From: Lingula anatina
Lineage: Eukaryota > Animalia > Brachiopoda
Assembly (NCBI GenBank): GCA_051362555.1
Contig: CM120646.1
Span: 17,484,001 to 17,548,000, forward strand
Reading direction: 5' to 3'
DNA length: 64,000 bases
In this document: positions 7,644-64,000 of the stretch, one piece after another
How positions within the stretch are numbered: the stretch's first letter is position 1
Layout: the number at the start of each line of letters is the position of its first letter
Notes under the pieces: generated by a model
The model's input: the letters and a program-made list of their open reading frames with translations, nothing else
Told to the model about the DNA's origin: nothing
The model's database searches: none
Translations under genes and position numbers: made by a program

Positions 7644-10600
7644 ATGAGGGTTTTCGTGGCGGTAGTTGCCTTTTTGATGTCCCAGGTAGGTTTTACTTGA
7701 AACGTTTTTCCCTTATGAAAAATATTCGGAATGGATTGATTGTAAGCGTATATATGATTACCCTGATTTTGTGCAATGAACCGTTTGCTATAAGGTATTT
7801 TTACGATGCATACATAGGTTGTCTAAATACATATATATATGTTTTATTCCATTGAATGTTTCACTTCTTGTGGCATTGTATTAATATTAATTCAAATAAC
7901 AGAATCCGTATTTACTTTACTTGAGAAAAGTATCCCGGCATGTTTTGAAGAAGTATATGCATAGTTATAATGATACTGGTTAATGAATAAAAACTATGCA
8001 CATGTTTGTGTACTACTACATCACAAAGTAAGCATCACATCCTATAGCGGGTACAGATAATCAGTACTACAGGGTGAACCAGGCTATCAATTCAATATAA
8101 CATTGTACCCCACAGCACCATCTGAGGCAATGTGAACGGTTTAAAAGCTGAGGAACGAATTGTAATATTGACTGCATAAGGCTTAATTCGCTCATGTGTC
8201 TTTTCCCTTTTTTAAATGGAGGGGATGGGAAGAAAAGAAGCTCCCCAAGTCGTCTGTGTTGCAGAGGTTCAGTGTGATTATCTATGACTTTGATTCCAAT
8301 GTTTATAACTTTGTATTCTAATGTTTATTACATGCGCTGAACTGCCTTCTTTCAGATCACTGTCGTTTCTGCAAAAACAGGTAAGAACTCCTTATTCACA
8401 CAGGACAAGTAGAATGTTAATATCATGTTATTATCACAATAGCTACTGTTACAATTTATGTCTTCTAGCTAGTGCTGAGCAAGTTATGTTTGGAGTAGAA
8501 AATGGGGACAAGGGTAAGAGCTGCATGGTATCATATCTATACAGGGATGCTTCGACTGTTTTGGATAATTAACACTTAAGCGCTTAGGCACTTGATGATA
8601 TGGACCCTGATAGTTTAAATAAACGACGAGGAATGATGTTTGTTGTATACCAGTACAAAATGCAAACAGTGTCATAAAGATCTACACGTCTGTTGTTCAT
8701 AGACCTAACAGTATATATATTAACATGAAGTGAACGTGTTTTTCTTCCTTTTATTCCTAGTGACGTACTCGTGCACCGACGCCAATGTATTAACCTTAAC
8801 GATAGGAGACAGGACGAGCAGTGATCAAGATACGACGGCATATTTCGCTAGTTCATTGGAAACTGACACTGAATGTATCCAAACACTTACAGCCGGCGCC
8901 ACGACTGATGTCACGTTTACGATAACACTCAGCACCACGGACCCCGCCAAATGTGGCATGGTGTTCGACGTAAGTTTGCCAAGTAATTTGTTTAGCTGTG
9001 TCTTTATCTATCATTCATCTATTATTCATCTATTGTTCAATTACAATTTCTTGATCTGTTCATCCGGAAATCTTCATCGAAATCTGTGATCTATGAAGAG
9101 CATTCTGAGATATTTCGTCCACAGTCATACTATTACTATGAAAACAACTTTCATTTATAGCGGAGGCAAAATTTAAACTCAACTGACATATCCAGTGGTA
9201 TGCATGTGTCTTTATCAAAGGTCATTTAACTTTGCAGAACAACACTAGTGTCTTTACTGGGACTTTGTGGATCAAGAAAGCACAAACCATAGTCCAGAAT
9301 GGGGATTCCTATTCTAATTTACAAATCCGCTGTGAAGGGGCTGCAAGGGACGTTGACGCCACCGTCACCGCTATAACTGACACGTAAGTAGGCCACCGCC
9401 TTCTCGTCCTTGCCGCCATATTGAATGCTATCAACCTGTACTAGCTAAAGAACCTATTCAGACGCAACTGACGGGAGTTTATCTTTTCACTTTTCAGGCC
9501 TACCCAACTACCAGACTCGGCACATATGGATCCTGAATTAACCGGTATATCGGACCGCACTACCCGTTTTCAAGGTGTGTATCAGATCGCATTTCGGAGG
9601 ATGAGCCCGCGGTCGTCCTACAAAATTTGTTCTGGGGTATGATACTCCGAAACGCGATCTGACACACACCTTGAAAACGGGTATACAGTGTGGTCCGATA
9701 TACCGGTTAATTCAGGATCCTTATGTGCCGAGTCTGGTAGTTGGGTAGGCCTGCTTTTGCAGATATTTAGCTTAGTTTGAAGTTAAATTATGAAAGTTAG
9801 TGACTACTGTGTTGTATGATTCTCACTATATACAGCAAGTCATACGTTCTTTCACCGACTGCCATATTTCATATGTCCGATATGTAGCAAATGGGGTTTT
9901 AAAACATGTTTTCAAAATATTTAAAAAACACGCAAAATTATTTTCATAAGCGACTTTTAGAACGTCTTTTGTCTAATTATCTCCTGAAATGGTTTGTATT
10001 TTTTTAAACTGGGTACTGTACAGTATTTGGGTAGTTCTGCTTCCTTGTCGTGTTTATATTGTAGGTCATCCCCCATTCTTCCATCTGAGGCCCAATCAAA
10101 TGAGAATGTTGCTATAACAGTCGAACTGGCGGACGGTTCGGCAATATCTGGCGCTGTTACGATGGCGCAACAAATTCGCCTTCGCGTCGCACTTACAATG
10201 CAAAGTGCACCAGTAGGTATGTTCTCCCTATAAACGAACGCAAAATTGATTCAGCAGTTAGCTTGCTCCCCATTTAAATGGTCGCAAAAACGAGCAGAAA
10301 TGGGAATATGTCATCAGTTGTAACTGACATCAATATGTATTTCGGGTATTCTGTTTCCTTTATTGTACAGTATAATGAAAGTGCAGGGAAAGTTGGATGT
10401 TCGTTTTAAAATTGTTTTAATGAAACCAGAATTATTGCCACGCATGTATCGAATGAGAACACATACTGTACTGTATTGCAATGAAAAAAATCGGATAAAT
10501 TACGCAGCAGTAATAAATTTAAAAACGAAGTCTGTTGTAAGTCGTAGCCATTCATTTACGCTTATCGATTAAATTTTTTTTTCAGATATTCTCGCTGTTT

Positions 10601-12331
10601 TGACGATTCACGTGGACTAAGTATATCTAAATTTATTATCAAAATATGATCTTTTTTCCTTATTCAGCAAGAGCCGTGCGGGTCAGCGATTGTACAGTTA
10701 AACCCACTTCGTCCTCGGATGCGAGTGTTAAACTCATCACCGACTAGTGAGTATTTTTACACATATCATTAGCCTACTCATGTAAATGTACTTTCATTTT
10801 CCTTTTATTGGAATTTTCAAAAGAATAGATAGTCCCAAGAATGTGTTGATACATTGTAGTGCCCATATGGTGACTTTGTATTTTCATCGCTATATGCAAA
10901 ATATTAATAATTATTATTAATTTTCATTATTACATATATTTTGTAGTGCATTCTATATAATCTCGATGAGGTTTGCAAGATGACGAAAACTTAGCAAACA
11001 AATTAATAACCAAAAACTGTTATATTTTGTTATATTTTGTTGTTATCATTATCGATACTCCTTTGCTGTTCAATATCCTGGCAATATCCTTACAGCTGCG
11101 GAGACAGTAGCACCGGAGTACTGGCTACCAGTCAAGGCTTTACGGGCGCAGCACCTTCTGCGGGTGCTACCACGCAGGAGTCCATATCGGCCCCATTCCC
11201 GCCATTCCTTATAGCCGGCCATGAAAGTACCAATTCAATGTTTATCACGTGTCGATGCGTTTTCTGCGGGACAGCCGGCGATAATAAGTGTGAAGGGGTA
11301 AGTTGGAAAAGGAGCTTATTTGGGGTTTTGTCTAAATGTTGTATTTACGTGTGTTTATGTGTTTGTGTGTTTAAAGGGTACGTGTTTCAGGGCACGTGTT
11401 ATTTTACTTCTTACACCATCGCTAAGCTGAGAACTCTAAGTACATGTATGTATGTAATGTATGTATTAGTATGTTTGCCATGGTTAAATGGTACTGCAAA
11501 GTAAATTTTTACCCAGGGCACGTCACCAGTAGTAAGTAGGCCTAATTTCCTTCAGATGTTTTCAGTGTTCAAATGAACATATTAGTTAAAATAATTCTGT
11601 GATTGCCTTATGATTATCAGCAAGCATAAACAAGAATATTTTCCTTTGATCGTCGGCGTAATTGTTTTAAGACGATTTTTGTACCTTGGCCAACCTCTAA
11701 TCGGCCACCTAACAGTAGAAGCATAATATAAATACTCGTCTTCTGCACCCTTATTCAGGACCAGTGTGCCACCAACAATGCAAGGAGAAGGCGAAGGGAT
11801 GTGGAGGAGACTTCGAGTAACTCCACTGTCGTCTCCACGTCCGTTTTCATTTCACTTGGCGCAGGACGCTCAGCGCAGGGCGCCGTTTCAGGTACAAAAT
11901 ACGTGTGTTTCAAATTGAAATGACAAACTTATGTAGGCCTATGTATTATCTGGGTATTTATCCATTCTTCCTGACTCGCTCTCACCGCCCTATGTATTTT
12001 GCACAAACAGTCTAACTACAAGCATAATTAACTAATTAACTGATCAAATAAATTACGAACAGACGAATTGAAATATTTTTCACTTATCTATCTATCTATT
12101 GACGGTTTCTTAATTACATGTATGTTGTGTTAAAAGCATTTATTCGTTCATCCAGTTTCAGATGACCAGACAGGCGGTTATTGTGAGAACCAAACAATCT
12201 TCATAGCGGTCACCTCTGTCATTGCCGCGGTGTTGCTCTTTGCTCTGGCCGTGATAGTTTTCATGTACACCAAGCTTCCGAGAAGACAGAATCCAGTCGA
12301 GAAGGAAGGAGTCACCAACCCGGCGTTTTAA
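7644..12331 (+). CDS. ZP (zona pellucida)-domain type I membrane protein ZP-A, VEZP-like; exons 7644-7685, 8356-8380, 8761-8969, 9238-9383, 10065-10216, 10668-10746, 11096-11297, 11759-11891, 12162-12331
   Basis: Continuous spliced frame. Signal peptide MRVFVAVVAFLMSQITVVSA. Four-Cys ZP-N-like region (YSC, TEC, KCG, IRC). ZP-C-like region (SAPFPPFLIAG...FITCRCVFC). Furin site RRRRR, EHP-like STVVSTSVFISL, TM helix, C-terminus GVTNPAF*. Confidence 0.85.
9495..9753. mobile_element. Foldback MITE with ~105-bp TIRs in ZP-A intron 4
   Basis: caggcctacccaactaccagactcggcacat... at the left is the near-perfect reverse complement of ...atgtgccgagtctggtagttgggtaggcctg at the right. Flanked by the direct repeat CTTTT (9490-9494, 9754-9758). 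Confidence 0.9.
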
Positions 12332-13815
12332 TACGTTGAATTTCGAAGCATGTGCGCTTGATATAAACTGCAGCTATAGATGCCCGGTTATGAACAGACA
12401 TTTCATTTGTCCAGTCTGCCTAAGTTTTGGGCAATTTTGTGACGTTTTTTATGATACTTGTAAATAATGTATGAGTGACGACTCTTCTGCGGTGGACGAA
12501 CGTGAGGAATGTTTATGCAAATAAGATCCATAAGACATATTTAGATATACCCGGTACCAGAAAATTATAAAACAACAATTAGTCAGGTTGTTCATGGAAC
12601 ATAAAAATCGGAAAGATATCTTGAATATTGTACGTTGGATTATGGATTTAACAAATAATGGTCTCCAATGAAACAGCACGGCTGTTTCTTTTCTATTTAA
12701 ATCTGAACTTTTTTTGTAGATATTTCTTATCGCCGCTTATTGTGAGGGTATTTTTGTAGTTTCGCTTTTTTTATGTTTTGCATATTCTTTTCCTTCCGTA
12801 GTTTGTGTAAGATATCGGCTTTTACATTCTTTGTGACTGTTCACTGCCATCACTCCTTAAGATGTAAGTTCTTGAATTATCATGTTGATTTTCCTTTGGT
12901 TGGAATAAAATCTTCAAAGAAAACACGTTTGATGTTCGTGCTAAAAGCGTTTAATGAACAAAAAAACAGAAGTAATGGTCATTCTATAGTCAAGTATTCA
13001 TGACAAATTGATTGTTTGTACCGCTGTGGAAAGGCAATGGGAGCGGGAATTTGATGTCCATTAAATAACTTGGATATTCCACGTTTAGAATATTTTTTAC
13101 TATCCTTGGCAATAAATGATAACAAATTTGCGAATCAAGTACATGTACAAAGATTCGTCGCTCTAGTCGTCATTGTTTTTCGTGCGGGTGATAAAATTTG
13201 AACTGATTATGTATTTCACGCCAAGACCCAAAACTCTGCCACAGATTGATTTTTAACCAGATATTCACAGATATGACTGTTGCTAAATTATGGCACATTT
13301 TTAAGTGCACATATTTAATCTGCAGCCCTGGTAGACGGTACCAAGATCCTGATCCATACACGCGCATGCCTTAAAATAAAGCAAAGCCACAAGTAATTTT
13401 CGTGAAATATCAAAGTGAGTTGGCTGTTTCCAATCCATGGTGTTTCAGTTTAAAGTAACACACGGAACAAGTCACGCAAAAGAACTGCCAACTGGGGAAA
13501 GTGACAGACGTACGTAAACATGGAAATTATATAAGGAACGTCGAATTTTCATGCATGCAGTGGCGTTGCATTTCTTTGAAACCCATTTCAAGTGTACAAT
13601 ATACCTATTATTTGACAGGACTAAATTCACTTTTTGAAGAAATCTCAAGGTAGAAAATTTGCAAATGCAGTAATCAGAAAACAGTGATCACATTACAGTG
13701 TAGCCTACCGGTACATTTGTACCAATACAAGTGAATGAGGCAAACTTCATTATATAGATTTCGTTGAAAGAGATGTTCTGCACTGTAACCGCTATATCGT
13801 CGTCAATTTCTGGAA

Positions 13816-16800: not shown

Positions 16801-17394
16801 ATTCATTCCACCTACCCGACGAGGGGTAAACAATGAGAACAAAACCTCTGCCGCCGACTGATCCGTCACTGTGGAATTTAACGGTTAGCCTGTTGCCAGG
16901 GACAGAATCGTGGTCGTCATGGTAACGTCGACAGAACTTTTGCTTGTATGTGGTGTTCGGCGCGCTGATTTCAACGTAGTCATAATTACAGTTTGCACCA
17001 TCGGGTTCTATGTTTATAAACCCAAAGTAAAACGTCAGCCCCTAGAAGAATATATTTAATGTGCATAACATGCGCAAAATACAGTATTAATATATGGCAA
17101 AGTAATGCTACCAAACAAGGAGCAGTTTCCGCATTTTTATATTTTCATTATGTTTACAAGCAATAATATCGTTCTATACTGCGATATTGAAATCTGGCAC
17201 ATACTGTACATATACGAGCTGTGACACGTACCTCTCCCTGAGGAGCGCTTACTTCCCAATAACAGTCCGAGCCGCTGGGGTAGTCCGTCCCGCGCGGCCA
17301 GGGATTGATGGTGATGGGGGCCCTTAGCTGAGTAGGGTTGTCCTGAGGGGGGCATGTCGGATGTTCACTGGTGCCTAAAACAGAAATATTTGCT

Positions 17395-17454
<60 letters not shown>

Positions 17455-20400: not shown

Positions 20401-21208
20401 GTTACATCTGTGTTGTAGCCAAGAATTTCTTACTCGCCACTGATTTGCAGACTCAGCTGATATATTTCAAAACATGAAATGGAGTCCACAGCATGAAAAG
20501 TCACAGAATAGGTATACAGTGGTATTAAGTGCAAGAGAAAAAATTCGGTCTTTGACACCAATTGTTGGCGTGAACACAATTGAATGAGACTTCGATTAAA
20601 TTACTCAGCCGTGATTTTCTGCTACTTCAGCAGCTAATACTTGTGCTTTATACTTAATCACACTATATTGATAACCACCAGGGGTATATACCCTGTTAAG
20701 ACTTAAAGCTGACTAAACGATTGAGCTTAAAAAATTCCAAAACAAACAAGATGGCAGTCTGCGAACATTAAATTGTGACATCCATGTACCAAATGTTGGC
20801 CCACCTACAACTGGTTCGGCAGCTGACCAGTGAGCTCTGAAGCCTTCATCTTGGACGGACTCGTCCGACGAGAAAACTAGGTACATAACGTTCCCTTCAG
20901 AACGTGCCTTGAAGTCGGCAGGAAGGGTTCCGCACAGCTTTCGGCCGATGATGTTCGACTGGTCTTCCAGGGGCTCGCCTTCGTATATTGACAAACTGTC
21001 GTAATTGCACGCGCGGTGCTGTTCCAGAGAGAACGTGTCAAAGGCGAGGAGCACCTGAAGTATAGAAATATAAAAAGTTCATGAACACTTCAAAAAGCTT
21101 TCTAAAATTCAGTGCCGATAGTGTTTGAGAACTGAAGAATACAGCGGAATCCTTCAACAGAAATGGGGAGATTCTAAATGAAAAAGGAAAGTACATATTG
21201 GAGAATTT

Positions 21209-21269
<61 letters not shown>

Positions 21270-22184: not shown

Positions 22185-22215
<31 letters not shown>

Positions 22216-47810: not shown

Positions 47811-48092
47811 TATAAATATCCCTGTTAAGGCTTGACAAAAACCTCATATAAAAAGAAAAGTAGCCTGTTCTTAATCGGAGTGTTTACATATAGAACATCA
47901 TTTTGATTTATTCTATTTCACATTTTAATGAAAAAATCGCTCTGACACAATTTTGGAGATTAATTTTGTGTCAGATTATCGATGCATTTTATTTGCAATG
48001 CGATCGCTCTGAATTCTGTACTAGTAGCTTAATGAAAACCTCATAAGCAGTTGCAGCCTGTTGACGTCCCTCTTCTACATATAGCACCGGAG

Positions 48093-49415
48093 CTATATCT
48101 TTTCTGTTGAAATATATCCCATTGTCGTCTTTTTAGTCTTCTCATGGGTTCTAAGAGCTAGATTGAAGTAAGAAAAGTAAAACAATATTGTGTCCTTTAA
48201 TATGTCCCTTGATGTGTATTATAGGTACAATAACTGAATTTGAAGGTATGTTTCTTAATGAGGATACATATACAAATATCCTTCATATTTTTAGAGACCA
48301 AATTGAAACATTTCTATAGCAATATCTCTATGGTATTTGACCCCAGAACTTGGTTCAACTTGTGAAACTATAGGCCTACGGGGTTCCTTTGACAATGAGA
48401 TTCTTTCCCTTACTAACCACTTCACTTCAATATACTGATGAACCAACACTGATTTTCGGCCTCTTACTCACCTCTGGCAGAAGAAGACCCTGATGCCCCT
48501 TTGTTTTCTGCACCTGCAAAACAACTTGGTAGCCACTGGCACCATGCCGCACGTGCAGCTGACTTCATGAAGCAGTGGAAAATGAACAAAAAGAGGCCCT
48601 GAAGGGAGTTAAAGATTGCAAACAGGTAATGGAACACCATAAACTTGGCACTGACGGTGAGGAAAGCGAAGCCCCAAGTGAGCCCCAGAAGCACGACCAT
48701 GCTGCAGGTGCCCTTGACCTGTGACGCCACTGATGACGTCTTGACACTGGTAATTTTCCTTTGCTTGGCATGACGGCGGATTTGACGAAAGACCAAAATG
48801 AAGCTGACGAAATTGAGAACAATCGTCAGTCCAATAGGTGCTATAACTGTGATGTACATGGGGACGGGAGTCAACCAGCAACTGAAAATTCAAAATATAA
48901 ATTACTTCGATATTATATATACCGGTATCAATTGTTATAGACTCTAAATGAAAAAATTCTATGATCTCAAGTGGGTCTGTTTTACTTTTAAAAAAACTTT
49001 GGTTAAAGGACCCAGTGTAAGGATTTACCCCGAAAAATTCCATGGGGGTAAACAGTACTTTTTACTCTGAATAACCAACCTTTGATCCTCGTTTCCTGAC
49101 ACCTGTCATTTCTCTATAACAAGCACTAACAGTAAATTAAACAAATATTGCCACATCACATCTGTACAAGACTGGGTTCCCACAGATTTGGATCGATCCA
49201 TCTGGATCGACCTAACTCCCTGAGGGTTCACACTAAATTGCTGTCAGCTTCTGGGAGCTGAGCATGCACAAAAGTTAATTACCCCCTTACAGCTTTTAGT
49301 AGTCGGGGCAGGCACTTAAGCTGGTTAAGCTGACAGCAATCTAGTGAGACTCCCCGGGGGATATATTGATCTAAATATCTGTGGGAATGGTCTCTTAGTC
49401 TTGTTTATACACATA

Positions 49416-49452
<37 letters not shown>

Positions 49453-52400
49453 TTAAGAAAAATAACTCTTACAACGTTGCATCATATCCAGTATAGTAGC
49501 CATAGTGGTCCACATTAATAGCAGTTGTCAGCACTACTACAAAGAGAGGAAAACCTGGAATGAAATAAACTTATTTCATCACATCTTTTAATCGATACAT
49601 GTACAAAGCTCAATTCCCAGTCTTACACAAGATTATTGTAATGTGATCACCACCTGAAGACCTCAATGTGTTTACTGCTCAATCTACCCAAAGCTGATTA
49701 AATATACATGTATGGTTTATTAGCAAAATCAGAAAAAAATATAATATTCAAAGTCCCCAACCCCCCAACACAAATTAACACAAAAAAGTGCTTAAAAATA
49801 TGATGCATGACCGAAATAAGGGGAGTTTATAAATTTCTGAGAATAATACCATACTCACCCCAACCAAAACCAGCAAATTTCAGTATCATTTTCCTGAAGT
49901 ACACATCAAAGACCTTGACCAGGGCCAAGTACATGTAGAAGGCTTCGACCAGCATCCAGCTCATAGTGGACAGTAGGAAGTAGTGGAGGAAGGCAGCTAC
50001 TAGCTGTATAGATATATGAATAGGAAATACTACAGTAACTACCACTTCTACTACTACTACTATTACTACGGCTGCTGCTGCTGCTACCACCAGTACTACT
50101 TTGACTACTTCTAGCAGTATAGATAATATGAATAAAAATACCATAGACATATGGTATAGATATATAAATAGGAACTATGACCATTTATTAATAAACCTCA
50201 ATGTTCAAGGCTTTAAACATCAGAACTAAGGAATGTAAGCTCGGCAGATGATTTAAAAAAAGCACTAAAAACTTATTTTTTAAATAAGTGTTATGATTAA
50301 CCATTTTCACCTTGCACACAATGACACTGCTGAGGTCCTGGGTGCCTGACACAAACATTAAGTTTAGACCAAGCAATGCTACACAAAGGTTTATCAAAAT
50401 CTTGGCTGGTATGTCCTTCAGAAGCTTTCTGTTAATAAATAAATACATAAATAAAAATTATTGACTAAAGAGATGTTGAGGGGACTGAAAAGGAAACAAC
50501 ACAGCCCAATCCCTCCCCCCATTTCAAAACCTGGTTACACTCTTCTGTCCACTAAAATGATGGACCCGTTTATTAATAATAAAGAAATAGCTTTCAATAA
50601 CGAAGACCCATAGATATTTAACTTTTGTGGACTACACTTCATAATTCTCCAAAATTTGAAATACACATAGAGTTTTGGTCTGTAAGTTTGGATCTACTTT
50701 TGATCTAAAATTATCCTGTCTAACCACTCCCTGGTGAACTGAAGCCTTTGTGTGAGCCACCTAGACTTACCTGAATACCACATGTGTTACAATTGTCAGT
50801 AACAGTGCTACAGAGCTGATAGCACATCCTACATAAGTTATAATACTCAAAATCTCTCTGTTAATCTTATCAATCTTCACAGCACTGCTGTAGACATCCT
50901 GAAGATTTAAGATGCGTTCAAATGAAGTTCACAAGAATGCAAAAATGCCCTGTGTGAAATCACACACACATATTATGCACCTTTCTTTGAATTTTGCTAT
51001 ATAAAACTTTATTTGTCACTGTTTGTTAGACTTCAAATTAAAAACCAAAAGATAAATATAATTATCACACTTATATATAGAATTTTAAATTGACAGTGGA
51101 TATGACTACAACATTTCATGTCAAAGTGGACGAGTTAATTTGGACGTTTGTTTAATTTGTTATACATAAGCAGTTATCCTGTAACCTCCCCCACCCAGAA
51201 TGTTAGTGGCTGCACTTACCACTAACAAGGCAAAGTTAGTGAGATGGTTACAATGGCACTCTGTGCTGTTACCCAGAATATCCAGGGCCACTTTACATCC
51301 ATAGTTTGACCAACCACCTAAACCACCACGGCTGTCAAAGTCCCAGTACACACACTGAGAGTTATTTATCACCTGGGAAAGATGTAAAATAAGGGGTATA
51401 TACTGTATATAAAAACAGGAAATATTTACTTTTTAAACAACACTGTTGCTTATCATCTAGTACATTACCTATTATGGTAAAGATGCAGGAACATTTTGTA
51501 GTTTATATTTGCCTCTCTTTCTCTCTCACTGTATGTATAAGTTAGTTCCACCTTAAATTTGATCAATTAATTTTCAACTTTACATTTTCTGTCACAGTAA
51601 TGATAGTTTTTTTCTATACTATGCATTATAACAATAATTTTCTACCTGATGCTCATTCAGATGGCGGAAGTACAATCTAATTGGCTCCTTCAAATTCTGG
51701 ACTTTTTTCCCCACCAGACTTCCTGAGATAATGCGTCCATTGAGGGCCACATAGGATGATGAAGAGGAGCTGTAATCTTCCTTCTGCTCTGAACTGTTAC
51801 CGTGAGCAGCTAGAACCTGGTAAAACATTTGGTAACCGTATGAATATTTTTTGGGTTTTAGAGTAAACTGTAAGAGCCTTAAAGGCACCAAACATAGTTA
51901 GACTCTAAGAACTCAAAAATATCTATAATTGTACAATAAAACTTGACCTATGGTCTTCTTACTAAATAGCCTTATAGTTTTTGTATAAATGCACTCCAAC
52001 AGTTTTTATTCTTTATATGCAGTGGCACTGATATTCAGGGTTTGAGAAGAGAAAGGTGCTAAAAAGTATTTTGTACATTAGGATCAGGTACTGGTATATG
52101 TAGCTATAATCTTTATCAATATTCAAATCATTCAATCATTCCAGATATTAACATTTACCTCAAAAAAAGTCTCTCTGTTATACACAACAAAGTGAACTCT
52201 TTGAGAGGCTGTGGCCATTTTGGAGACATTTTCCCTGACAAACAGTGATCTGGGTATACGAATGGCCACATCAACATTGGAATGAAAAGGTACCTCAGCA
52301 TTTTTCAAAATCTTGACCTAAAACATATAACATGAAGTATGTAGTAACAATTGATTTGAGCTGAGATTACTATATAAGGCAAAATTATACCATGCAGAGT

Positions 52401-52965
52401 TATTGAGATACACATAGAATTAAAGATTCTGAATACTTTTGAACTAGTTGAAAAATATCAAGTTATGTATTAATATATACAGATTGACTAATTTGTTAGT
52501 GAGTAAATGAGGAAACAGATGAGTTCATAAATAGATGAATATAAACAAATATGATAACATTAAACAAGCATTAAACAAATAAACACAAACACAAATTAGA
52601 AAAAAAGCAATATTTTGGACTTTAATAATAAGTAACAAGTCACCTCTAAGCCACCGTTTTCCATTATTGTTTTATCCAGGCTGTCAAGACCAATACCATC
52701 AAAGTCTGCATCATCAACAACAACATCAGCCACTGACAGTGCTAAGTTGGGAGTCACCAGGGTCAAATTATTACCATCAATTTTCATGTTTGCTGCAAAC
52801 TCTTCAACTATTTCTAAAATTCTGAGAAAAGTTTCCATAAATCCAAAACTGGGACTTAATTCTGCCTCATTGTCTTTGTAGTGAGCCATCTGCTGTTAAA
52901 ATGCCAAATTTCCTTGTAGGACATCATTTAACCTTTACTATTTATAAACTGTGATTACTTAAATA

Positions 52966-53008
<43 letters not shown>

Positions 53009-56000
53009 GTATACTCTTGAGTCTCAAACTAGTTGACAACTGACCAACATTTTCATGTATACAAAAGTGCAGACACTAGAATCAAAGTTAAATCCCATTA
53101 AGCTTTTTGTCTAATATTTATTTTAGACATAAAAATACATGTATTAATACAATTGTATCTTAGAACTTGAATGCTCACCTAATGGACTGCCATATATACT
53201 GCACACACAGTGCCTGAAAAACCTCTCTCACTTACGTTTGTGCAAGTTTAGATGTACAAACACAAACAGGTGACATACACACCTTGTTACTCCCAGTGTT
53301 CTTTCCTCAGACTCCAATAAGGCCCCGGGGTCAACATCCATAAGATGACCCACAGTTTGGACGACCTCTCTAGCCACAATGGGGTCATCTGAGGTCAAGG
53401 TCACTACTTGAGCCAGCACATCTGTAGTAAGGTCAACATCAATGCTGTCAAATAGTTCACCTTCACCTGATGTCACCTCTGACAGAGTGACAGCAACTTC
53501 TCTTGCATTTTCTGAAATGGTGACCAAGATGTTACTCACAATTAAGGTTTTATGATGCTCACGCCTACCAGTACATACAGGTGTATTGCTAATCTCAATG
53601 GTTTTGGCTAGAATAATATACTGTATATGTATGTCTACGAATATACACACACACACATATAATTTTAACTTTCTGCAATCATTACACTAAAAAAGCTTAC
53701 ATTTCAATTAAAATAAGCTCCAGCAGATTCTAGAGTCACAAACTGTGAAAAACTTACCTAAGGTGATGCCTTCTGTTTGAAGGCCATGTAGGGTTAAAGT
53801 CAACTTTGTAACACAATTACTCAGCTCTGGTTCCTGCCAGAACACAGTGTTTTCCTCAGATATGACACTTATAAAAACAAAAATATATATATATATAATA
53901 TACTTTCTTTTTATTGTTAAATACAACTAAAAAAACTAATATATGTGTAGACCTAAGCTAAAATCTGTATTGCAATGTTTGATTTTTTATGGAAAGTGTG
54001 ACAAATTTTTAGAATATAAAATGAATGCCACATTCTAAATTATTTTAGAAAAATATGAGGTGAATCTGAAAATCTTTAATACAACACTACCCTAATAGTA
54101 TTTGGTGTTTGCAGATGCCACTTTTGGCTCACTTTCTAATGCCTGAATTAACTCATATAATTTTGATAAGTGTAAAAAAATTGACAGATATTTATCTATA
54201 TAGCATGTGGTTTGAAAATAAATATTTTTGTACCATGTCCTTGTGGCATTTGCATTTTCATCAATATGAAATTGGCAAGGTAGATGAACCACCACACTTT
54301 TTATGGTGCTGTTGACTTGGGTCAATGGCCATTGGTATCTGCCTTTGACACCAGAGGTCACCTCTGATGCACACTCTCCTGGAATAAAAAAAAATCTTCA
54401 ATAAATTAACACTGAACATTTAAAGGAGTGTATATATTACATTACATTACATTACATTGTTAACACAGTGACTGTGGTTTGTCTAGTGGACATAAATATA
54501 TATTACAGGTCTAGGCTGAACCTGATGTGAACTGCGCCAGTTCTCTTATTCTCACCTGTGGAAATTTGTGATGGATTAATGACATATATGGTCAAATTTA
54601 CAGAGGTTGTGGGGCCATCATATTCCTCAGATTCAGGGGCCTCTCTGCGCTGTCTTTTTTCTATGCAGTGACCTGGGTATACCTAAATTTTAAAAAATAA
54701 AAATTAATAAAAAAGTGATTGATTTCATTGTGATTATTATTGTACACAACAGCTACAAAAGGGAAATTAAAGGACCTTTATACAGGGATAAGGACTGTTT
54801 CCAAATTAATACGTCCATCTTCCAAGGGAATGTGGACTACAGCACAGGTCTAAAGTAATGAACATGATAATAAGATTATCTTCGCACTTTTACTTTCATA
54901 AAACACAAAAACATATTATTGTATTTTTCCACTATACTTACTGAGAAGTCACAATATTGATCAAAGGCTTCCGAGCAGAATGTGACAGTGCAGAGGAAAT
55001 ATACAGAAGTGGCGCCCCCTCTCAGAGCAAAGACATTAAATACAGGTGACATGGCAAACGTGCCATTTCTATTTGACACAAAACCCTGTCCACTTGGCCA
55101 TATTTCAGGTATGTCAGTGCCACAGCTGGAATATATTCATGAACATATTTTAAATAAGAAAAATGATAACTGCCTATACTTTGGACCCATTATACATAAT
55201 GTATGTATAGTGGTTCTATGTGCATACAATTAAATTTCGGTATTACTGATTTCTAATTGTACATCCAAAAGACCTCATTTTGTTCTCTTGCAATATCTAA
55301 ATCCAACTGAATTCCTGTCTAGTCTTTTATTATAATATAGGAAATGGCTTATTATTTATTATTGAAACATTCAAACAATTTCTTGTATATCCTGAGCTTT
55401 ACATGCAGCACTTAAGCTAAAATATGACACTGATTTTGTTGTTGCAAACAAGTGATTTATCTTACATTTTAATGTAAGTGCAATTAAACTGCAAACTGTC
55501 CAATAAAATAGAAGTGGGCAGGATATGTATACAACTCAGGGAGGGTTGGGGCTGTTCAACTGAAGTCCCCCTCCCCCTCCCCTCCCAACACACAGACAAA
55601 GCAACACTGTTGAAAACGTATCAGTTGGGAATGGTACAAACATGTAATTTGAACAGTTAATGTTAAAATGAGGTGTTACCATCTAAATGCTTTCAATGAG
55701 CTTACTAATCTGAGAGTATGGCTAGCCTGGGACTGATCTCCACTCTTGAAATCTGGACAATACATGATTTAATACGCATCCCAGTAAATCCTGAAATTAT
55801 AGACAAATCAATATTAATTAACAGTATTTTTATTTATATTTAAAATATAAATCCTCAGCAAAATGACCTTACGTTTTTCTGAGGGAAAATTATTTCATGA
55901 ACATTATAATATCATTACATCATAACAATCAGTTTTACATAAAGGTGTTTTTAGCCCTATTTTGACTAACAGTGCCCAATGCCAAATGCCAGTGAAAGCG

Positions 56001-58957
56001 AAAGTGCAAGTAAGCTTGTCCAGTAAAAATCTGTATAACATTCTGTTCCTGGCCACTAGTTCTGCTGAAAGTTTCTAATGTGACAGATTCTGCTGTTCCA
56101 AAGGACCTAAATATATAGAATTTAAAATTTTGGGCAAAGACTCAGACATATCTCTTGCATTACTTTACAAAGAGAGAGAGAGAGAGAGGTGGAGAGGAAA
56201 AAAAGAGAGAGGGGAAGAGAGGAGGGAGAGGAATGTGTGTGCTCATACAGGTTCCTTACCCCCAAAACCTTTCTTTCCTATCCTCACTCGTAAATGCACA
56301 GGTGTTCCAAGCTCTAAAATATTTGGGAGAGCTTTTGCATCTGGCAAAGTTTCTCTGTTTTTGGTCCCTGCTATTGTGTCCATTACGACCTCTGGCTTAA
56401 GATCAATAGGGTGGCCTGTTGATAGGCTAAAATATACTTTCTTCATTAAGTTGTCTGTAAATTAGTAAGACTGATGGTACCAAACATGACAATTCTTTTT
56501 TTTCTTATTTTTTATTATTTTTATTGCTAAACCACATAATTAGCAAAAGCATCTGAGCACGTATTGATACAATTGCCTAAAGTAACTTAGATCGAAACAT
56601 TTTATAAAGGGTTTCCTCAGCTAAATAATAATTTGCAAAAAGCTTTTAGACTGAAACAGTAGTGCTAGTTTAATGTTAGATACTGGCAATCGATTGTCCA
56701 ACCTCAGCAGTCTCTGGTTTGCCAAATGATTTGTGAAACAAATAATTGCCCAAACTTATTTTTTTTTGTAGATTAAAAAGCCACTCCATGGGATTTCCCT
56801 ACCCAAATGAAATTTCAGAGGTTCTCTTCACGTATCTGGGCATACTTTGTTTGGTTATGATCTTCTCAGCCATTTCCAGCATGCAACATGCTATTATACA
56901 TGGTGAAGGGTTGCAATACAAAACACCCCACCATTTTTTTGTGTGAAAACGAGACAGTGCGTGTGATATTAGAGATGATGTTAATTTGACTGTCAGTCAT
57001 TAAAAATGAAACAAAACATGGAATCTAAGTATAAGGGTGGGTCAAGCAACAATTTGTGAGTAGTAAAAATTGCTCTTCACTCTAGGAAAATTCTGTTTGG
57101 TGGGAAAATGTGGGTCAAGCAACAATTTGTGAGTAGTAAAAATTGCTCTTCACTCTAGGAAAATTCTGTTTGGTGGGAAAATGTCCTGGTGGGGCACTTT
57201 AAGCTTAGTATCTCGGTCTAAACAGAAACTACAGTGTAAATTACCTCAGTTGACAAAATGTCAACCCATAGCACTGTTGAATGTGCTGCGGTTTCAAATG
57301 ACTTACTTCCATGGCTGAAGTCCTACATCCAGAGTTGTATTAGTGGCATATTCTTGATATCCACAGTCTATGGTGAAAACTGTGTCTTCTGCTTTACGGA
57401 TGTATGGATGATGTACAGCAAAAACAACAATAGGCCCACTCTCCTGTAAAAACAATAGTTTACATAACTATTAATAAGTTTGTAAAGATTCATTTTTTGT
57501 GAAGAAAATGTATACGTAACTTGATAAATACTCTGTAAAAATTTTACAGGGTCCAATACACATGTATGATTTTTTCCTGTTTTGTTTCAGAGGAATTAAT
57601 TACCAAAATACCTTACTGATCTTTAGAGTGTCTTTCTCCTAATTTAAAAAATTCATACTCAAATTTTGACCAGACAAGATATAAAGTGATTCTTTTTAGT
57701 TTTTTACAAGAACAAATCACAATGTAAATGCAGAAACACAAAGCTTACAGAAATACCACATGGATTTCTCGAGGTCACTTCCACCATAAGTTCCAAGTAT
57801 CCATCTTGGTTTGCACTGTCATCATAGCAACTTCTAGTGTTTTCGGCATCTTTTATATAAATTTTGCTCCATGAAGCAGTTAGGTAATTTGAATGTCTTG
57901 AACGAATATAGAATATCCTCCTGTTTGCATCCAGGATACACTGGTAATCCGCTAAAATGATTGATTCTTAATCATTGGTTATCACAAACAAATTTCAAAT
58001 GCAGGGGTGGACAGAAGCTGTTTTCTGGGTCTTACGGAAGGCAGTCAGAATTTTTTAAGTTTACATTGATGGGCAACTATTTTTTTCTGTCAGAAGACAG
58101 TCAAATGGAGGTTGGATCAACAAAGATAAGTTGGAAGACTATTAGAAAATACCTCTGGATCTCCTAAAGTACCAGTTACTTCAAACATTTCATTATAATT
58201 TCAAAATTTAATCTCAAAAATCAAACTTTCATCTTGAAACCAACACAATGCTCTGGACTGTCAGATCATCTTGATTAAGAAAAATGGAGAAAATAATTTT
58301 TTTTTTTGTCAAATATTTTGAGCATAATAATCAAATGCAAAAAAAGACTAACAGTTGGGAAAAGCCAGTTAAAAATAAAACAATTAGAAAACAACATTAC
58401 CTGTTTCAGCAACAGCCGCACCAATGAATAAAAGCTGATAAACAGAAACAATATTTATCTTTATAAAACCACTACATTTCTGTGCTGAATGATATTGATA
58501 TATGACACATTAACTTCATAGTAATCTAAAACACAGTTCATTTGGACAGCAAACATCGTGCCTTATACTAATCTCACATTTTGAAAAGGAAAAGTACATC
58601 TGCATTAAGATTTACCATAAGGTAAAGGGTGTAATATCTGGCAGATTATGACCGCACTAATAGTAATATAAAGACCCCAAGACATAAATGTAAACGTTTT
58701 AATTTACATTTGATTTATACATGCATCGATCCAGCCATTCAAAATATTGTATAAGTATGATAGTATTAGTACCAAGGCCGAAAACTGTGACAAAGTCCCT
58801 CTTGGCTTTAATTTTACCGTCACGGTCTTAGTGTGATAATTGTCCTAGTGCGGTCTGTTTGTCCGGTAGTCCTCTTTGGTAGATCCCAAATTATGAACGT
58901 TTGCTTTCAATCAGCTGATTACAAAAAGCAACAACTTACCACCAGCAGCGGTGCCAT
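48093..58957 (-). CDS. Adhesion GPCR (ADGRG2/4/6-like 7TM) with N-terminal ZP module: SP-ZP-furin-EHP-HormR-GAIN/GPS-7TM; exons 58957-58940, 58434-58401, 57951-57749, 57443-57307, 56426-56260, 55790-55706, 55125-54942, 54682-54556, 54378-54234, 53867-53758, 53511-53283, 52821-52644, 52317-52159, 51816-51646, 51372-51220, 50898-50771, 50428-50311, 50003-49859, 49554-49473, 48881-48472, 48157-48093
   Basis: Signal [15 protein letters not shown]. HormR-like [18 protein letters not shown]...LPC...ATRTC...[18 protein letters not shown]...GGWSNYGC...ECHCNHL|TNFALLV. Class B2 7TM motifs [41 protein letters not shown]. The last exon is tentative; AATAAA lies at ~47990. Confidence 0.88.
49170..49394. 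mobile_element. Degenerate foldback element in aGPCR intron
   Basis: ttcccacagat...cactaaattgctgtcagctt is inverted relative to aagctgacagcaatctagtg...atctgtgggaa. Confidence 0.55.
57037..57184. repeat. Perfect 73-bp tandem duplication (intronic)
   Basis: gtgggtcaagcaacaatttgtgag...ggtgggaaaat starts at 57037 and again at 57110. Confidence 0.95.
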
Positions 58958-59652
58958 CACCACTTCCTGGCTTCAAATCTGCCGCTGAACTCCTTCCGAT
59001 CGAGTTTCCGCTCTCACCACGTGACACGGATAGAGGGTGGTGATTGGAGTTTCGAGACGCGAGAACTATCTCGCTTATTACTCTGACCACAGGGGTCGCA
59101 ACTACAGTAGTCTGGTACCAGTAATTGATAGGGCAATTAACGTGCAGTACAACTAGTTTCGTTTGAAACATCAACAATATAGCTACAATATAGTTACACA
59201 ATTACAAAAGAAGTTGAAAAAATGAAAAAATCATAGATCGCGGTTGAGACCGTCTGCACTTTTTCATTTTTGCTTATTTATTTATCGTTTTGCTTTAAAT
59301 TATTTATATCTTGCTCTTTCTTCATCTTCCCTCCATCTGCAAACAACGAAATGTACGACACACAGCTAACAGAAATGTGGTCACATGAATTAATTTTTGA
59401 AATTTAAAAATAATATCATCGATCATGACAACACCTCCCAAGCTTTTTCTCCCCCCCCCCCCCCCCAAGTTCTGTACCGCTCGACTTAACGGAGTCACGT
59501 GATGACAGCCTCCCCACAATCCCACTGTATATGATTTGGCGTCAGATACGAAGATAGTCAAGCTGGTCGGTCTTGACAATATTTAACCCATAGCTCTTCA
59601 GTTGTGGTCGTTTATGACCCTACTCAGAAACGAGTTTAAAAAAGTGCGCACC
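58958..59652. promoter_or_regulatory. Putative bidirectional promoter between the ZP-aGPCR and ZP-D
   Basis: Divergent start codons only ~700 bp apart. The region is locally CpG-richer and contains GTCACGTGA (E-box/CRE-like). Confidence 0.55.
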
Positions 59653-62600
59653 ATGTCAACCGTCTTTATTGCAAAGGCTATAATTTTGCTGGGGGTAAGT
59701 GTAAAGCGATAGTGGACTGCGTCAAAAATATGACTCTCGTTTGGTTGTGCACTGTAGGTTTTCTGTGCGCACCGAGTCTACTTTAACTCGTAATAATTCT
59801 ACTCGTCAATATTTCCTCGACCTGTCCCTGCACTTAAGTTCATTATTTGAATTTGTACCATTTTTAATTAACAGGCACAAGTCCTGTTATTGGGGTTTAA
59901 AAGAACCTCAGAGGTTCCCTCTGATTCAAAATTCTATTGCATTTCTCAAGATTGGTCAACAAAGGTGGTCAAAAGGTCCACTTTTAAGAATAACTCTCTT
60001 TAAATAAACTGGCTTCAGGCATCAGTAACTTAAATGCTTGTGTAATACTGGTAACAGTACCAGTAATTCTTAGTGGATAATGTTTAATTTCTACTGCCAT
60101 GCCATCCTGGCACATCAGGAGAAAATACTGACATTTTAAGATGCATGTAGCAGTAATATACCCGTTGTTATACACTGAAGAAATAAATACTTACATGTGT
60201 TTAATTTTGTTCGTTTTGCTGGATAAAAATTCTGTTTCTTATGCTATATCTCAATGTTTTTCAGAGCATTGCTGTATCAGCATCCCAGAACCTAACAGGT
60301 GCAGTATGTTTGTTTTTTTCACAGTCAACTTTATGAACCCTAAGTTTAATTAAATTAATTTCCCTGAATGTCAACATTTTATACTTTATCACAAGGTAAA
60401 CCATATCCCCAATTGTTGACAAAATTACTATCTACAGTATACTTGCTTTGGGGCCTGAATTTCCCCTTTTTTACTCATTAGATTGGTAAGGTTATGGTGA
60501 ATTTCACCCTTAATGGCAAACAAAAATTTAGAACTCAAAAACACAGGGAATTGTTAAATGCCATTTAACTCATTTGAACCAAGTTTTTTGCTTCATACAT
60601 AGAAATTTGAGAGGAATGTGTAACATTAAACAAATTATATACAAATACAAGTAGGCTTGATAATAGCCACATGGTAAAAAATTATAGTGAATTTTAATTC
60701 AAACCTCTGGACCCTGTTTTACCCAAGAACTCAAAACACAAGTTGTTCATAACTTCAACATATATTCATTCAAATGGATTTCTACCAGTAATGATTAAAG
60801 GGATAATAACTGTTTGCATGAGTTCTGTATGTCACAATAAAAACATTGTGAACAACTCATAGAAATATAATATATTCTGTTTTACCACAAAAACAGCAGT
60901 TATAGCTATTATTCTGATACCTGAGCTTGTCTTTAGACCACGTGACCTCCAAAGATGGCTATACTCTGTTATAATCTCTTAAGAGATTATAACAAAAAAA
61001 AAAAAAAAACTTTTTAGAAAAAAAAACAGGGACTAACTTTGAATGTAAAACTGGATTCATTAACCATTGGTAAGTATGGGAAAATTGTTGTTTACTCCAG
61101 GGAAATTCATTTTTTGGCCAAAACGAAGAGTTATTATCCCTTTAATGATGTGTCAAGGTGAGGTAAGAAGTGGAAAATTTAACTTTCATTTTGTGACCCC
61201 AGCACTTGTTGGATGAATGTCTGCACATGCACTGTTAGTCCTGCCTTAATATTTTCAAATTTTCAGCATCATACATGTGTTACCAAGAAGATGGCTCCAA
61301 GTTTTTTTATTTGCGTGTTAGTAATGAGCGCCATGATCAGTGGAGCAAAGTGTATGTCGATGGTGCTGAACAAAGTCCTGGTTGCCATGCCAACACCAGC
61401 TTTCCTGAAAATCAGACAGTTGATGGTGGATCAGGAATACAAGTAGAACATTCATCATCCTCTTTCCTAGAGCTGAGAATTAACATTACTTCACAGAATA
61501 ACTGTAATCTGACAGTAGGTTTTGTCTTTTGTTATTCTGATTTAACGGATCTCGGATGTTTTCGTCTTTTTTTCATTAAAATGTCATAGAGGTAAAGGGG
61601 CCAAATAATTTGTCAGTGTGAAAAATATGAGTGGTAAAATAAAGATAATCTTTTGCCTTGAATTCTTATGTGAAATTTGTACCCTATCACCTTTCATACC
61701 ATTACTATTATTGTAATGTAAATCCAGATTCTGCAAAAAATCCTAGTTTTAATGTACCTGCATTTTACAAAAAAAAATTTTAATGAACTATGGTCAGTGG
61801 TTTTAAGAAGTCCAAAACATGTTTAACCAATTATAAGAGAACTATTTGGTCGACAATCCTCATACAGTAGGGAGATTGTAAAATTGTTCTTCCATTTTAA
61901 TATATTTTTGTTTCATTAATTAAAAATTATATCATATTTCTATATTACTTATTTAGGAGGAATCTAATATCATTGTTTATGCCAGAAAAGACCAACAGAT
62001 CAACACAGAGAGGGACTATGTTTTCTTCATAAGTAGTTCTGACTGTACATATGAGGAGTATCTTTCTGAAGTTTCTGTGGAGGTCCAGAGTATTCCAGCA
62101 TTGTAAGTAAACAGGGCACCTCAGCATTCCTGCTTGTAGTATGTTGTATAGCACATGGCATTTGTTTTTGTACTTTTAAAATATCTTCCTTATGAAATAA
62201 GAGAAAAAGCCGTGTACATATTTCATGTTCTCGTGGTTCTGGCACTATGAACATATTCATGAAGTTCAACATTTCCCATGGTGCATTCAATATATAGTTC
62301 CATGGTACCATCAAAACTAGACAACGTGAACACAATATTTTTATGGTTCGAAAAATATTACCTTGGTACATTCAATATAATTCGAGTGAGGTGCACTCAA
62401 TATATCAAAATACTTGGCGATTACATCTTTTTTCAAATTAAAAAATAATATACCTGTTTATATATGTATAATGGACATAATTCAAAAACTTATAAACAGT
62501 TTATTACTTATTATATTAAGTATTTTGTTTTTATATATTCATGAACATGCAGATTCTAATCTTATAATTTATTGTATTTTTATTTGTTCATGTTCCCTTT

Positions 62601-62655
62601 ATCAATTTATTTCATTTATTGATTGATTTATTCCGACACTAACTTAGTTAGTCTC

Positions 62656-62693
<38 letters not shown>

Positions 62694-64000
62694 TAATAAT
62701 AATATCTGTATCAGTGCCATAAAAGGAAGGGCAGTGCAGCATGACTTTCAGCCCAGAATGCAGATAGTGCCAGGGAACATAACGGCAAGTGATGTACTTA
62801 ATTCAGTGGAGTGGGGGAATATCAGCACCCCTGGTCCTCTCCATATTGGGACACCTGTCTGTCTCTTGATACAAGGAAGTCAGATGGGAGGTTTGATATT
62901 TTTCTGTCCTTTTGATATGTAAAACATCAGAGGAAAGGAAATGTTTGATATCTTGATTTAAGTTTGTTTTGTAATCTTTTCAGGAATAATTATTAAGACC
63001 CTATTAAGCCTCTACCAGGGTCTCAGATTGATTTTTCACCAGATACTGAAAGAATAAGTGGCTAACTCATGACACGCTCCTCTCCACGGGCTAAAGAAAA
63101 ATGCACATATTATTTTTCCGTTGTTCTGGTAGAGGGAAGCCATCATTCAACATTCATATCCATTTCTCAATATCTTCATTATATGGCTGATATCAATGAC
63201 CATGCAGTAGAGGACACACAAAAACATTTGGGTGCCATCATTCTATAGACCCCTTTTTGTCCCTGTTGATCAGTTTTATATATTCATTCCAACTGATTAC
63301 ATTTGATAATATGAAGATGGCTGTAGGGTGTTTGATCTATAATAAAGAATTCATTATTCTCTGTATAAATTTGCCAAAGGATTCCAAGCACTGAGGGTTC
63401 GTTCCTGCATTGTACAACCAAGCAACAATGACTCTTCTCTACAAATTTCTATGCTGTCAGATTAGTAAGTAGAGTACACAAATATGATGTTTTTATCCAG
63501 ACTTGAAATAAGACTTAATAAATGACCTGTAGTAATGTTGATTAAAAAATTTTGAAAAGTCAGTTGGCTCTATGTCAGAAGGTACAATTTTGAGTAACAA
63601 AAAATGATAAATCTCCAATTTAAAGTAAGACAAGTGAGAAATTTTAATTGATTACTGCACATTTTATAGCATGCCTTTATTTTTTAAAAATCAATTTCTG
63701 TAAAATATTACAGTTGTGGAACTGGCAGAGGAAAACCATCGCCAGAGAAATGGTCAGAGTTCAGTGGTTTTATTGGAGCCGCGGCCTCTCCTGGGGAGTT
63801 TTCTGCAGTGTCACCACCTTTCCAGCTGTTTTCATTCAGAGGTGGCAATACCAGTGTGTATTTTATGTGTACAGTGACATTCTGCCAGTCTGCCACCAAC
63901 AACCGCTGTTTTCATATGGTAATTATAATTGTTTATTAGCCCTTAATCGCATATATGAATTTTTTTCTCCTCAATTTTCATATTTTTATTGTAGATAACC
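59653..64000 (+). CDS. ZP-module gene ZP-D, 5' part, truncated by window end; exons 59653-59694, 60265-60298, 61267-61514, 61957-62102, 62715-62890, 63380-63464, 63714-63918, 63995->
   Basis: Signal MSTVFIAKAIILLGSIAVSA. ZP-N ASYMC...FYLR...WSKVY...LEL...TSQNNC. ZP-C RVRSCIVQ...LSDYCGT...SPPFQLFSFRGGNTSVYFMCTVTFC. Closest in sequence to the aGPCR ZP module, with the same intron phases. Confidence 0.85.
63009..63136. mobile_element. Copy of small MITE family (see 41260-41391)
   Basis: cctctaccagggtctcagattgatttttcac ... ctggtagaggg. Confidence 0.65.

What the first reader, a model, noticed from the sequence alone, without database searches (positions are those of the whole stretch)
7644..63918. 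Identical intron-phase skeleton in four ZP genes points to exon shuffling at a phase-1 intron
Seen: ZP-A, ZP-B and the aGPCR share coding intron phases 0,1,0,2,1,2,0,1, and ZP-D shares the first seven. All four split the signal peptide over two tiny exons. All have an intron inside the Tyr codon of a D-Y-C motif (TDY, ADY, SDY, SDY). After the phase-1 intron that follows the furin/EHP exon, ZP-A and ZP-B continue into a TM exon, while the receptor continues into its HormR exon. Inference: a locally duplicated ZP gene swapped its TM exon for an aGPCR body.
Basis: partly seen in the sequence, partly recalled or inferred. Interest (0 to 1): 0.75.

Follow-up and report, generated by a model that had tools for sequence, protein, structure and literature searches.

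The report
Adhesion receptor with egg-coat ZP head
In the lamp shell Lingula, an expressed G-protein-coupled adhesion receptor carries as its outer end a whole zona-pellucida (egg-coat-type) module, likely copied from the gene next door, and so may sense the assembly or stretch of a surface protein coat; this combination was not found in the papers and databases searched.

Summary
Four ZP-module genes in this Lingula window share intron phases 0,1,0,2,1,2,0(1), a signal peptide split over two exons and an intron in the Tyr of D-Y-C. Two ZP-B junctions are my picks, without RNA support.

The receptor is real. RefSeq XP_013391984 matches my 21-exon model at 1005 of 1016 columns. RNA covers ZP exon 8 and HormR exon 9 at equal depth on one strand, although the 8-9 joint itself was not printed.

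The interpretation needs correcting. The shared skeleton is ancient ZP-family structure (human ZP1 has a phase-2 intron before Cys478), so it does not prove a local origin. Better evidence does support one: the receptor's ZP is sister to ZP-D (97/93; ZP-A and ZP-B rejected as sisters), a single-pass ZP gene lying head-to-head across a shared CpG island.

No second ZP-headed adhesion GPCR turned up among 22 profile hits, 119 other receptors or six paper searches. Head swapping on adhesion GPCRs is common, so this is a new variant of a known kind, seen so far in one species. Its function is untested.

The parts
7644..12331 (+). ZP-A: 9 coding exons (7644-7685, 8356-8380, 8761-8969, 9238-9383, 10065-10216, 10668-10746, 11096-11297, 11759-11891, 12162-12331); signal, ZP-N, ZP-C, furin RRRRR, EHP, TM; 385 aa
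   Evidence: partial RefSeq XP_013392015.1 and a second model P0142
37634..45321 (+). ZP-B: 9 coding exons (37634-37657, 37993-38032, 39006-39166, 39729-39892, 42399-42508, 43065-43155, 43663-43846, 44575-44716, 45152-45321); furin RRKR, TM; 361 aa; 3' UTR to about 46800
   Evidence: last intron and UTR by RNA; exons 1-5 boundaries inferred
54556..58957 (-). Receptor ZP block, exons 1-8 (58957-58940, 58434-58401, 57951-57749, 57443-57307, 56426-56260, 55790-55706, 55125-54942, 54682-54556): signal, ZP-N, ZP-C, furin-type RQRR (aa 286-289), EHP
   Evidence: (VERL_C E 4.6e-7)
54379..54555 (-). Phase-1 fusion intron (177 nt) between the furin/EHP exon and the HormR exon
   Evidence: RefSeq model joins here; flanking exons equally covered by RNA; the joint row itself was not printed
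48093..54378 (-). Receptor body, exons 9-21: HormR, GAIN, GPS (HL|TNFALLV), 7TM of ADGRG2/G4/G6 type, short tail; 3' end near 47765
58500..60000 (.). CpG-rich island between the divergent start codons of the receptor (58957) and ZP-D (59653); likely a shared promoter. CpG o/e about 1.0, against 0.25 and 0.26 in the two gene bodies
   Evidence: promoter function inferred
59653..63918 (+). ZP-D exons 1-7 (59653-59694, 60265-60298, 61267-61514, 61957-62102, 62715-62890, 63380-63464, 63714-63918); the gene continues beyond the window; RefSeq product has furin RQRR, EHP and one TM; sister of the receptor's ZP

Best explanation
This Lingula gene encodes one expressed protein with a complete ZP module joined in frame at a phase-1 intron to an ADGRG-type HormR-GAIN-7TM body; it likely arose when the 5' block of the neighbouring ZP-D lineage was duplicated in inverted orientation and fused to a receptor, and it would work as a sensor of ZP-matrix assembly or tension. 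Shown: exon structure, expression, ZP-C fold, sister relation to ZP-D, head-to-head layout. Inferred: the precursor is cut at RQRR by a furin-type protease and at the GPS by itself. The EHP strand, left on the receptor side, is predicted to stay packed in ZP-C, so the ZP head remains clipped on non-covalently. Binding or incorporation of the head into filaments of co-expressed ZP-D would pull on or strip the head and load the GAIN domain, exposing the TNFALLV tethered agonist. I put the origin at about 0.75 and this particular function at about 0.3.
For: One transcript: RefSeq model identical at all junctions; depth per exonic base 16.7 over exon 8 + exon 9 against 7-25 over most other exon bins, same strand, whereas an uncovered exon 8 would need 82x on 32 bases; the 177-nt intron holds no TM exon. 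ZP identity: VERL_C above its cut-off; all 8 Foldseek hits at E<=1e-3 and all 7 VIA hits at Z>=8 are ZP domains; a strand at model residues 285-295 sits inside the range aligned to ZP-C structures. Clean module border: similarity to ADGRG6 and to a hemichordate receptor begins within the first 2-16 residues of exon 9. Donor: receptor+ZP-D 97/93; alternatives rejected; exon 2 is 34 nt and exon 6 is 85 nt in both, and six of seven introns lie at the same distance from the nearest Cys; shared CpG island. Direction: none of the other 21 ZP hits has a 7TM and none of 119 other receptors has a ZP. Mechanistic precedents, passages read: furin-cut SEA head of ADGRG6 stays attached until force (PMC6954182); cleavage-triggered EHP release drives ZP polymerisation at the membrane (PMC7737619).
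Against: The exon 8-9 joint was not among the printed rows, and ZP exons 1-7 and ZP-D were outside the RNA lay, so co-expression with ZP-D is untested. The receptor's ZP has the longer branch (1.94 against 0.64), and its ZP-N modelled poorly (pLDDT 30-50). At the position I take as the polymerisation FXF motif (assignment recalled, placed) it reads F-A-L, whereas ZP-D has F-S-F. Filament incorporation would detach the head, so any signal might be brief. The tree has 22 long-branched rows found with a profile seeded by these same genes, and other Lingula ZP or receptor paralogues may be missing. At 34% identity no DNA trace of the duplication remains, so inverted duplication is inferred from layout alone. 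No orthologue in a second species was found.
Confidence: 0.6

Rival explanations
1. Same origin, but the ZP head is a non-polymerising ligand-binding or trafficking module, as in betaglycan and endoglin (role recalled), and the receptor answers a soluble or cell-bound ligand rather than matrix tension.
For: Betaglycan and endoglin ZP domains are among the top fold matches; F-A-L at the FXF position; longer branch than ZP-D; the receptor is expressed in a run where ZP-B is silent.
Against: The furin-type site and EHP-like strand are both kept; uromodulin and egg-coat ZPs match equally well (Z 10.0-10.6, tied).
Confidence: 0.25
2. The ZP head is simply shed by furin as matrix material or is a passenger: the fusion was kept because it gave the receptor ZP-D's promoter and signal peptide.
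For: The furin-type site lies 30 residues before HormR, so the head can be lost early; the leader exons and probably the promoter came with the block.
Against: All ZP cysteines and a foldable ZP-C are kept despite 66% divergence from ZP-D, which implies selection on the module.
Confidence: 0.1
3. The ZP-receptor is old or came from an unlinked ZP gene, and its closeness to ZP-D reflects a later back-duplication (ZP-D derived from the receptor's 5' end) or incomplete sampling.
For: The skeleton is ancient; the ZP-D TM exon is unlike the ZP-A and ZP-B TM exons; no brachiopod or phoronid orthologues were available to root the order of events.
Against: ZP+TM is the common layout among the hits; ZP-D has the shorter branch; no ZP-7TM protein appeared in any other taxon.
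Confidence: 0.1
4. Annotation artefact: a TM-less ZP gene and a separate receptor lie in tandem.
For: One database model in this very locus fuses a phosphodiesterase to ZP-A (P0142); the 8-9 joint was not printed.
Against: The 177-nt gap has canonical splice sites in compatible phase, there is no other signal exon for the receptor, RNA depth is level across both exons, and RefSeq gives the same join.
Confidence: 0.03

Closest known systems
ADGRG6/GPR126 (and ADGRG2, ADGRG4)
   Same: HormR-GAIN-7TM core (PDB best hits ADGRG2 292 bits, ADGRG6 276, ADGRL3 192); intact GPS; a furin site just before HormR that can release the head (PMC6954182 passages).
   Different: No CUB, pentraxin or SEA domain by Pfam; the head is a ZP module. 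The RefSeq name 'ADGRG6' is a best-hit label; orthology was not tested.
Lophotrochozoan VERL/VEZP-type single-pass ZP proteins (Pfam VERL_C; LZP2-like layout in PMC9290575), nearest ZP-D XP_013392004.1
   Same: Signal, ZP-N, ZP-C, furin site, EHP; same intron skeleton; 34% identity to ZP-D.
   Different: The single TM anchor is replaced by HormR-GAIN-7TM, so the ZP is N-terminal and far from the membrane instead of membrane-proximal.
Uromodulin, ZP2/ZP3 (polymerising) and betaglycan/endoglin (co-receptor) ZP modules
   Same: ZP-C fold, Z 9.5-10.6, rmsd 3.0-4.7 A over 126-151 residues.
   Different: 12-17% identity; as recalled, none is fused to a G-protein-coupled body.
Invertebrate adhesion GPCRs with lineage-specific heads (amphioxus: somatomedin B, kringle, C-lectin, SRCR; sponge: SRCR)
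   Same: Novel N-terminal module attributed to domain shuffling (PMC2246102, PMC4302439 passages).
   Different: 'zona' occurs 0 times in the main text of either paper; here the probable donor gene still lies next door.

Membership tests
Adhesion GPCR (class B2) | Secretin-family 7TM | tested here: met
   Pfam 7tm_2 E 2.3e-49, aa 718-956
Adhesion GPCR (class B2) | GAIN domain with GPS before TM1 | tested here: met
   GPS E 3.2e-15; continuous alignment to ADGRG2 from aa 429; Pfam GAIN PF16489 itself not hit
Adhesion GPCR (class B2) | H-L|T/S cleavage consensus and hydrophobic tethered agonist | tested here: met
   [11 protein letters not shown] in sequence; consensus recalled; actual cleavage not tested
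Adhesion GPCR (class B2) | HormR domain | tested here: inconclusive
   No Pfam HRM hit; Cys/Trp pattern and alignment to HormR regions of ADGRG6 and P0002 from exon 9 on
Adhesion GPCR (class B2) | G-protein signalling | not testable with these tools
   needs a cell assay
ADGRG6/GPR126 proper | CUB-PTX-SEA ectodomain | tested here: not met
   aa 18-319 are ZP, and no CUB, pentraxin or SEA hit
ZP module | ZP-C fold with conserved Cys | tested here: met
   pLDDT mostly 71-93 over model residues 121-250; all top fold hits are ZP
ZP module | ZP-N domain with four Cys | tested here: inconclusive
   Four Cys (22, 59, 82, 112) align across the family; Atlas hits at 0.92 include ZP-N+ZP-C clusters; model of this part is low confidence
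ZP module | Consensus furin site followed by EHP strand | tested here: met
   RQRR 286-289; predicted strand after it, pLDDT 77-79
ZP module | FXF polymerisation motif in ZP-C | tested here: inconclusive
   F-A-L in the receptor, F-S-F in ZP-D, F-K-F in ZP-B; several relatives also have F-x-I; motif position assigned from recall
ZP module | Polymerisation into filaments | not testable with these tools
   needs expression
Exon shuffling by intronic recombination | Module border at an intron of compatible phase | tested here: met
   Exons 3-8 are flanked by phase-1 introns; HormR similarity starts at exon 9
Exon shuffling by intronic recombination | Identifiable donor paralogue | tested here: met
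   ZP-D sister at 97/93; ZP-A and ZP-B rejected
Exon shuffling by intronic recombination | Unfused acceptor orthologue in related taxa, with a phase-1 intron before HormR | not testable with these tools
   No animal genomes could be searched; the nearest other receptor (hemichordate P0002) has a Ly6-like head, intron phases unknown

The most novel reading that the evidence does not exclude
A G-protein-coupled sensor built from a subunit of the very matrix it monitors: its ZP head co-assembles with ZP-D, made from the same bidirectional promoter, and filament growth or tension strips the furin-cut head from its EHP strand and triggers the GAIN tethered agonist. The ZP-C/EHP pair would then be a further cut-but-associated force switch beside SEA and GAIN.
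Probability: 0.25. Interest if true: 0.8.

Novelty: new variant of a known kind. Interest (0 to 1): 0.5.

Why it matters
ZP modules build egg coats and apical matrices and normally sit next to a single membrane anchor; adhesion GPCRs turn force on their ectodomain into signalling. A natural fusion of the two offers a direct way to test whether a ZP head can couple matrix assembly to a receptor, and whether ZP-C with its EHP strand stays together after cleavage. As evolution, it is a clear case of an adhesion-GPCR head swap with the likely donor gene still head-to-head. Limits: such head swaps are common in invertebrates, it is known from one species, and nothing about function is shown.

Tried and rejected
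No whole genome was available, so the Lingula ZP and receptor repertoires could not be listed. Word-index searches with the ZP region found only the receptor itself (1 of 1270 candidates) and nothing among shorter proteins (0 of 832); the second missed ZP-D, so these blanks are weak. No RNA holder was listed by the index; nine same-species raw-read runs were offered and four laid. Run X4 showed neither gene. X7 and X9 are mostly 90-95% alike to the window, so missing receptor reads there may partly reflect the 92% cut-off. A 13-row fragment alignment was misaligned and dropped; a 7-row one was used. The single-sequence fold of the whole receptor was useless (pLDDT 35). The Atlas search over the ZP-HormR junction gave no usable hit. 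The locus search in metagenomes could not run on alignment A3. One search compares alignments that share members and is not evidence. No complex prediction was run. Paper searches on ZP intron phases found nothing. Rejected: ZP-D as a second receptor (its RefSeq product has one TM); ZP-A or ZP-B as donor; the phase skeleton as proof of local origin. P0141 (99 aa), P0122, P0126, P0127 and P0135 were left out of the tree as fragments or replaced by my model or longer cluster members.
Full report
Organism and locus. The largest 7TM exon matches a Lingula anatina RefSeq protein at 99% (XP_013391984.1). The window has 37% GC and holds, in order, ZP-A (+), a CUB/TSP1/trypsin gene (-), ZP-B (+), the receptor (-) and ZP-D (+, running off the end). 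My spliced receptor differs from RefSeq at 11 of 1016 columns, so the window is another individual or assembly of Lingula.

The observation. I read all four genes by hand and checked them by script. The phases are as stated: 0,1,0,2,1,2,0,1 in ZP-A, ZP-B and the receptor, and the first seven in ZP-D. The signal peptide is split over two small exons in all four. Intron 6 splits the Tyr of D-Y-C in one alignment column in 4 of 4; the other introns lie within a few codons. ZP-B exons 1-2 and introns 3-4 are my best picks and lack RNA support; intron 4 has an alternative phase-0 reading.

The receptor is one gene. RefSeq joins exon 8 to exon 9 as I do. The intron is 177 nt with stops in all three frames and no TM exon. 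Depth per exonic base in the bin holding exon 8 and the start of exon 9 is 16.7, against 7-25 in 17 other bins; two bins are inflated by a repeat. Only 44,400-54,680 was laid, so ZP exons 1-7 and ZP-D have no RNA check. ZP-B is very abundant in X7 and X9 and absent from X1, while the receptor shows the reverse pattern.

Anatomy. Signal (1-17), ZP-N with four Cys, ZP-C, RQRR at 286-289, EHP-like strand, then HormR-like region, [16 protein letters not shown] and 7TM. A 23-sequence model gives a confident ZP-C and a poor ZP-N. All 8 Foldseek hits at E<=1e-3 and all 7 VIA hits at Z>=8 are ZP domains. The core is closest to ADGRG2/G6/G4. Similarity to other receptors starts within the first residues of exon 9, so the module border coincides with the intron.

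Where the head came from. A profile search of 1.84 billion representatives gave 22 hits. The best after the receptor is ZP-D, whose RefSeq product is an ordinary 462-aa ZP protein with furin site and one TM. Receptor and ZP-D share 34% identity (140 bits against 32-36 for ZP-A and ZP-B). In a 22-row tree they are sisters at 97/93; receptor+ZP-A and receptor+ZP-B are rejected (p=0.002 and 0.026); a clade of all four is neither found nor rejected (p=0.21). Exons 2 and 6 have identical lengths in the pair. Their start codons are 696 bp apart, head-to-head, across a CpG island, and both bodies are CpG-depleted (0.25, 0.26) while ZP-A and ZP-B are not (0.93, 0.82). ZP-A and ZP-B form a second pair by their TM exons (both 170 nt, 103 identical).

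Why the skeleton is not the proof. Human ZP1 splice variants sit at c.1014+1, c.1112+1, c.1430+1 (p.Cys478*), c.1573-2 and c.1775-3, the last before the TM exon (passages of PMC7231235 and PMC9327729). That gives phases 0, 2, 2, 0 and 1. Trp471 to Cys478 has the spacing of the W-x4-D-G-C motif that aligns with D-Y-C, so the D-x-C intron is likely bilaterian or older. Only this intron and the pre-TM one are anchored in position; the others match in order and phase. Alternative models of two unlinked Lingula ZP genes part at the equivalents of introns 5-6 and 7 (indirect evidence). The skeleton shows that the receptor's 5' half is a genomic copy of a ZP gene, leader exons included, not which gene.

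Mechanism. Shown: structure, expression, fold, kinship, layout. Inferred: inverted duplication of the 5' block and recombination in phase-1 introns; double cleavage; a head held by the EHP strand. In uromodulin, cleavage releases the EHP and drives polymerisation at the membrane, and uncleaved subunits tether the growing filament (PMC7737619 passages). In ADGRG6, a furin-cut SEA domain stays together until force (PMC6954182 passages). I therefore favour a sensor of ZP-matrix assembly or tension (about 0.3), ahead of a betaglycan-like ligand-binding head or a shed passenger. Against it: F-A-L at the FXF position, the longer branch, and no test of co-expression or binding.

Novelty. Only 1 of 22 profile hits has a 7TM, and the other 21 are at most 566 aa. 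None of the 119 other receptors listed scores above 2.6 bits with a ZP profile that gives this one 138. Relatives over 50% identical would be hidden behind the representative, and distant ZPs may be missed. Six searches pairing ZP and adhesion-GPCR terms listed 14, 0, 0, 1, 5 and 1 papers; by listing none describes such a fusion, and the two I opened (PMC5731807, PMC12155184; passages) do not. The Lingula genome paper (PMC4595640; passages and supplement search) and a lophotrochozoan ZP survey that includes Lingula (PMC9290575; passages, section 6 and supplement search; found) gave no mention. Figures and subscription papers could not be seen and may bear on this. Amphioxus and sponge surveys (passages) show that new heads on adhesion GPCRs are frequent. 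The scan's own notes hold nothing on this locus but list two other head swaps.

Verdict. Observation confirmed; inference right in outcome but needing ZP-D as donor and other evidence. A real, apparently undescribed ZP-headed adhesion GPCR: new variant of a known kind, interest 0.5.

Noticed in passing
window 12162-12331 and 45152-45321: ZP-A and ZP-B TM exons are both 170 nt, 103 nt and 27 of 55 aa identical, both ending TNPAF, while their ZP modules are only 21% identical: a conserved tail (NPxY-like, recalled) under fast-diverging ectodomains.
   Followed up: partly
window 48000-64000: Sharp CpG depletion over the receptor and ZP-D bodies with an island between them; ZP-A, ZP-B and the protease gene are not depleted. 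Suggests two regulatory classes in one cluster.
   Followed up: partly
window about 13800-23000 (-): Multi-CUB, TSP1, LDLa-like, trypsin protease gene between ZP-A and ZP-B (CUB, TSP1 and trypsin by Pfam). ZP proteins are activated by proteases such as hepsin, so it could be a processing enzyme; untested.
   Followed up: partly
window 44400-46800: ZP-B is very highly expressed (exon depth about 1,000-2,000) in runs X7 and X9, with a 1.5-kb 3' UTR that ends about 1 kb from the receptor's 3' end.
   Followed up: partly
P0150 / P0133 / P0149 (another Lingula scaffold): One gene model joins an N-terminal ZP-C to EGF-EGF-C-type lectin; RefSeq splits it in two. If real, a second Lingula protein with a ZP head.
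   Followed up: partly
P0142; window upstream of 7644: A database model fuses a cyclic-nucleotide phosphodiesterase to ZP-A; probably an annotation error joining the upstream gene.
   Followed up: partly
window 9495-9753, 32522-32821, 43459-43644: Long palindromic elements (MITE-like) in introns and intergenic DNA; parts of the 32.5-kb one recur at about 5100 and 26100.
   Followed up: no
window about 49200-49380 and 47490-47830: Repeats that draw many reads from elsewhere in all four RNA runs: one in receptor intron 19, one just past its 3' end.
   Followed up: no
window 57037-57184: Perfect 73-bp tandem duplication in receptor intron 4.
   Followed up: no
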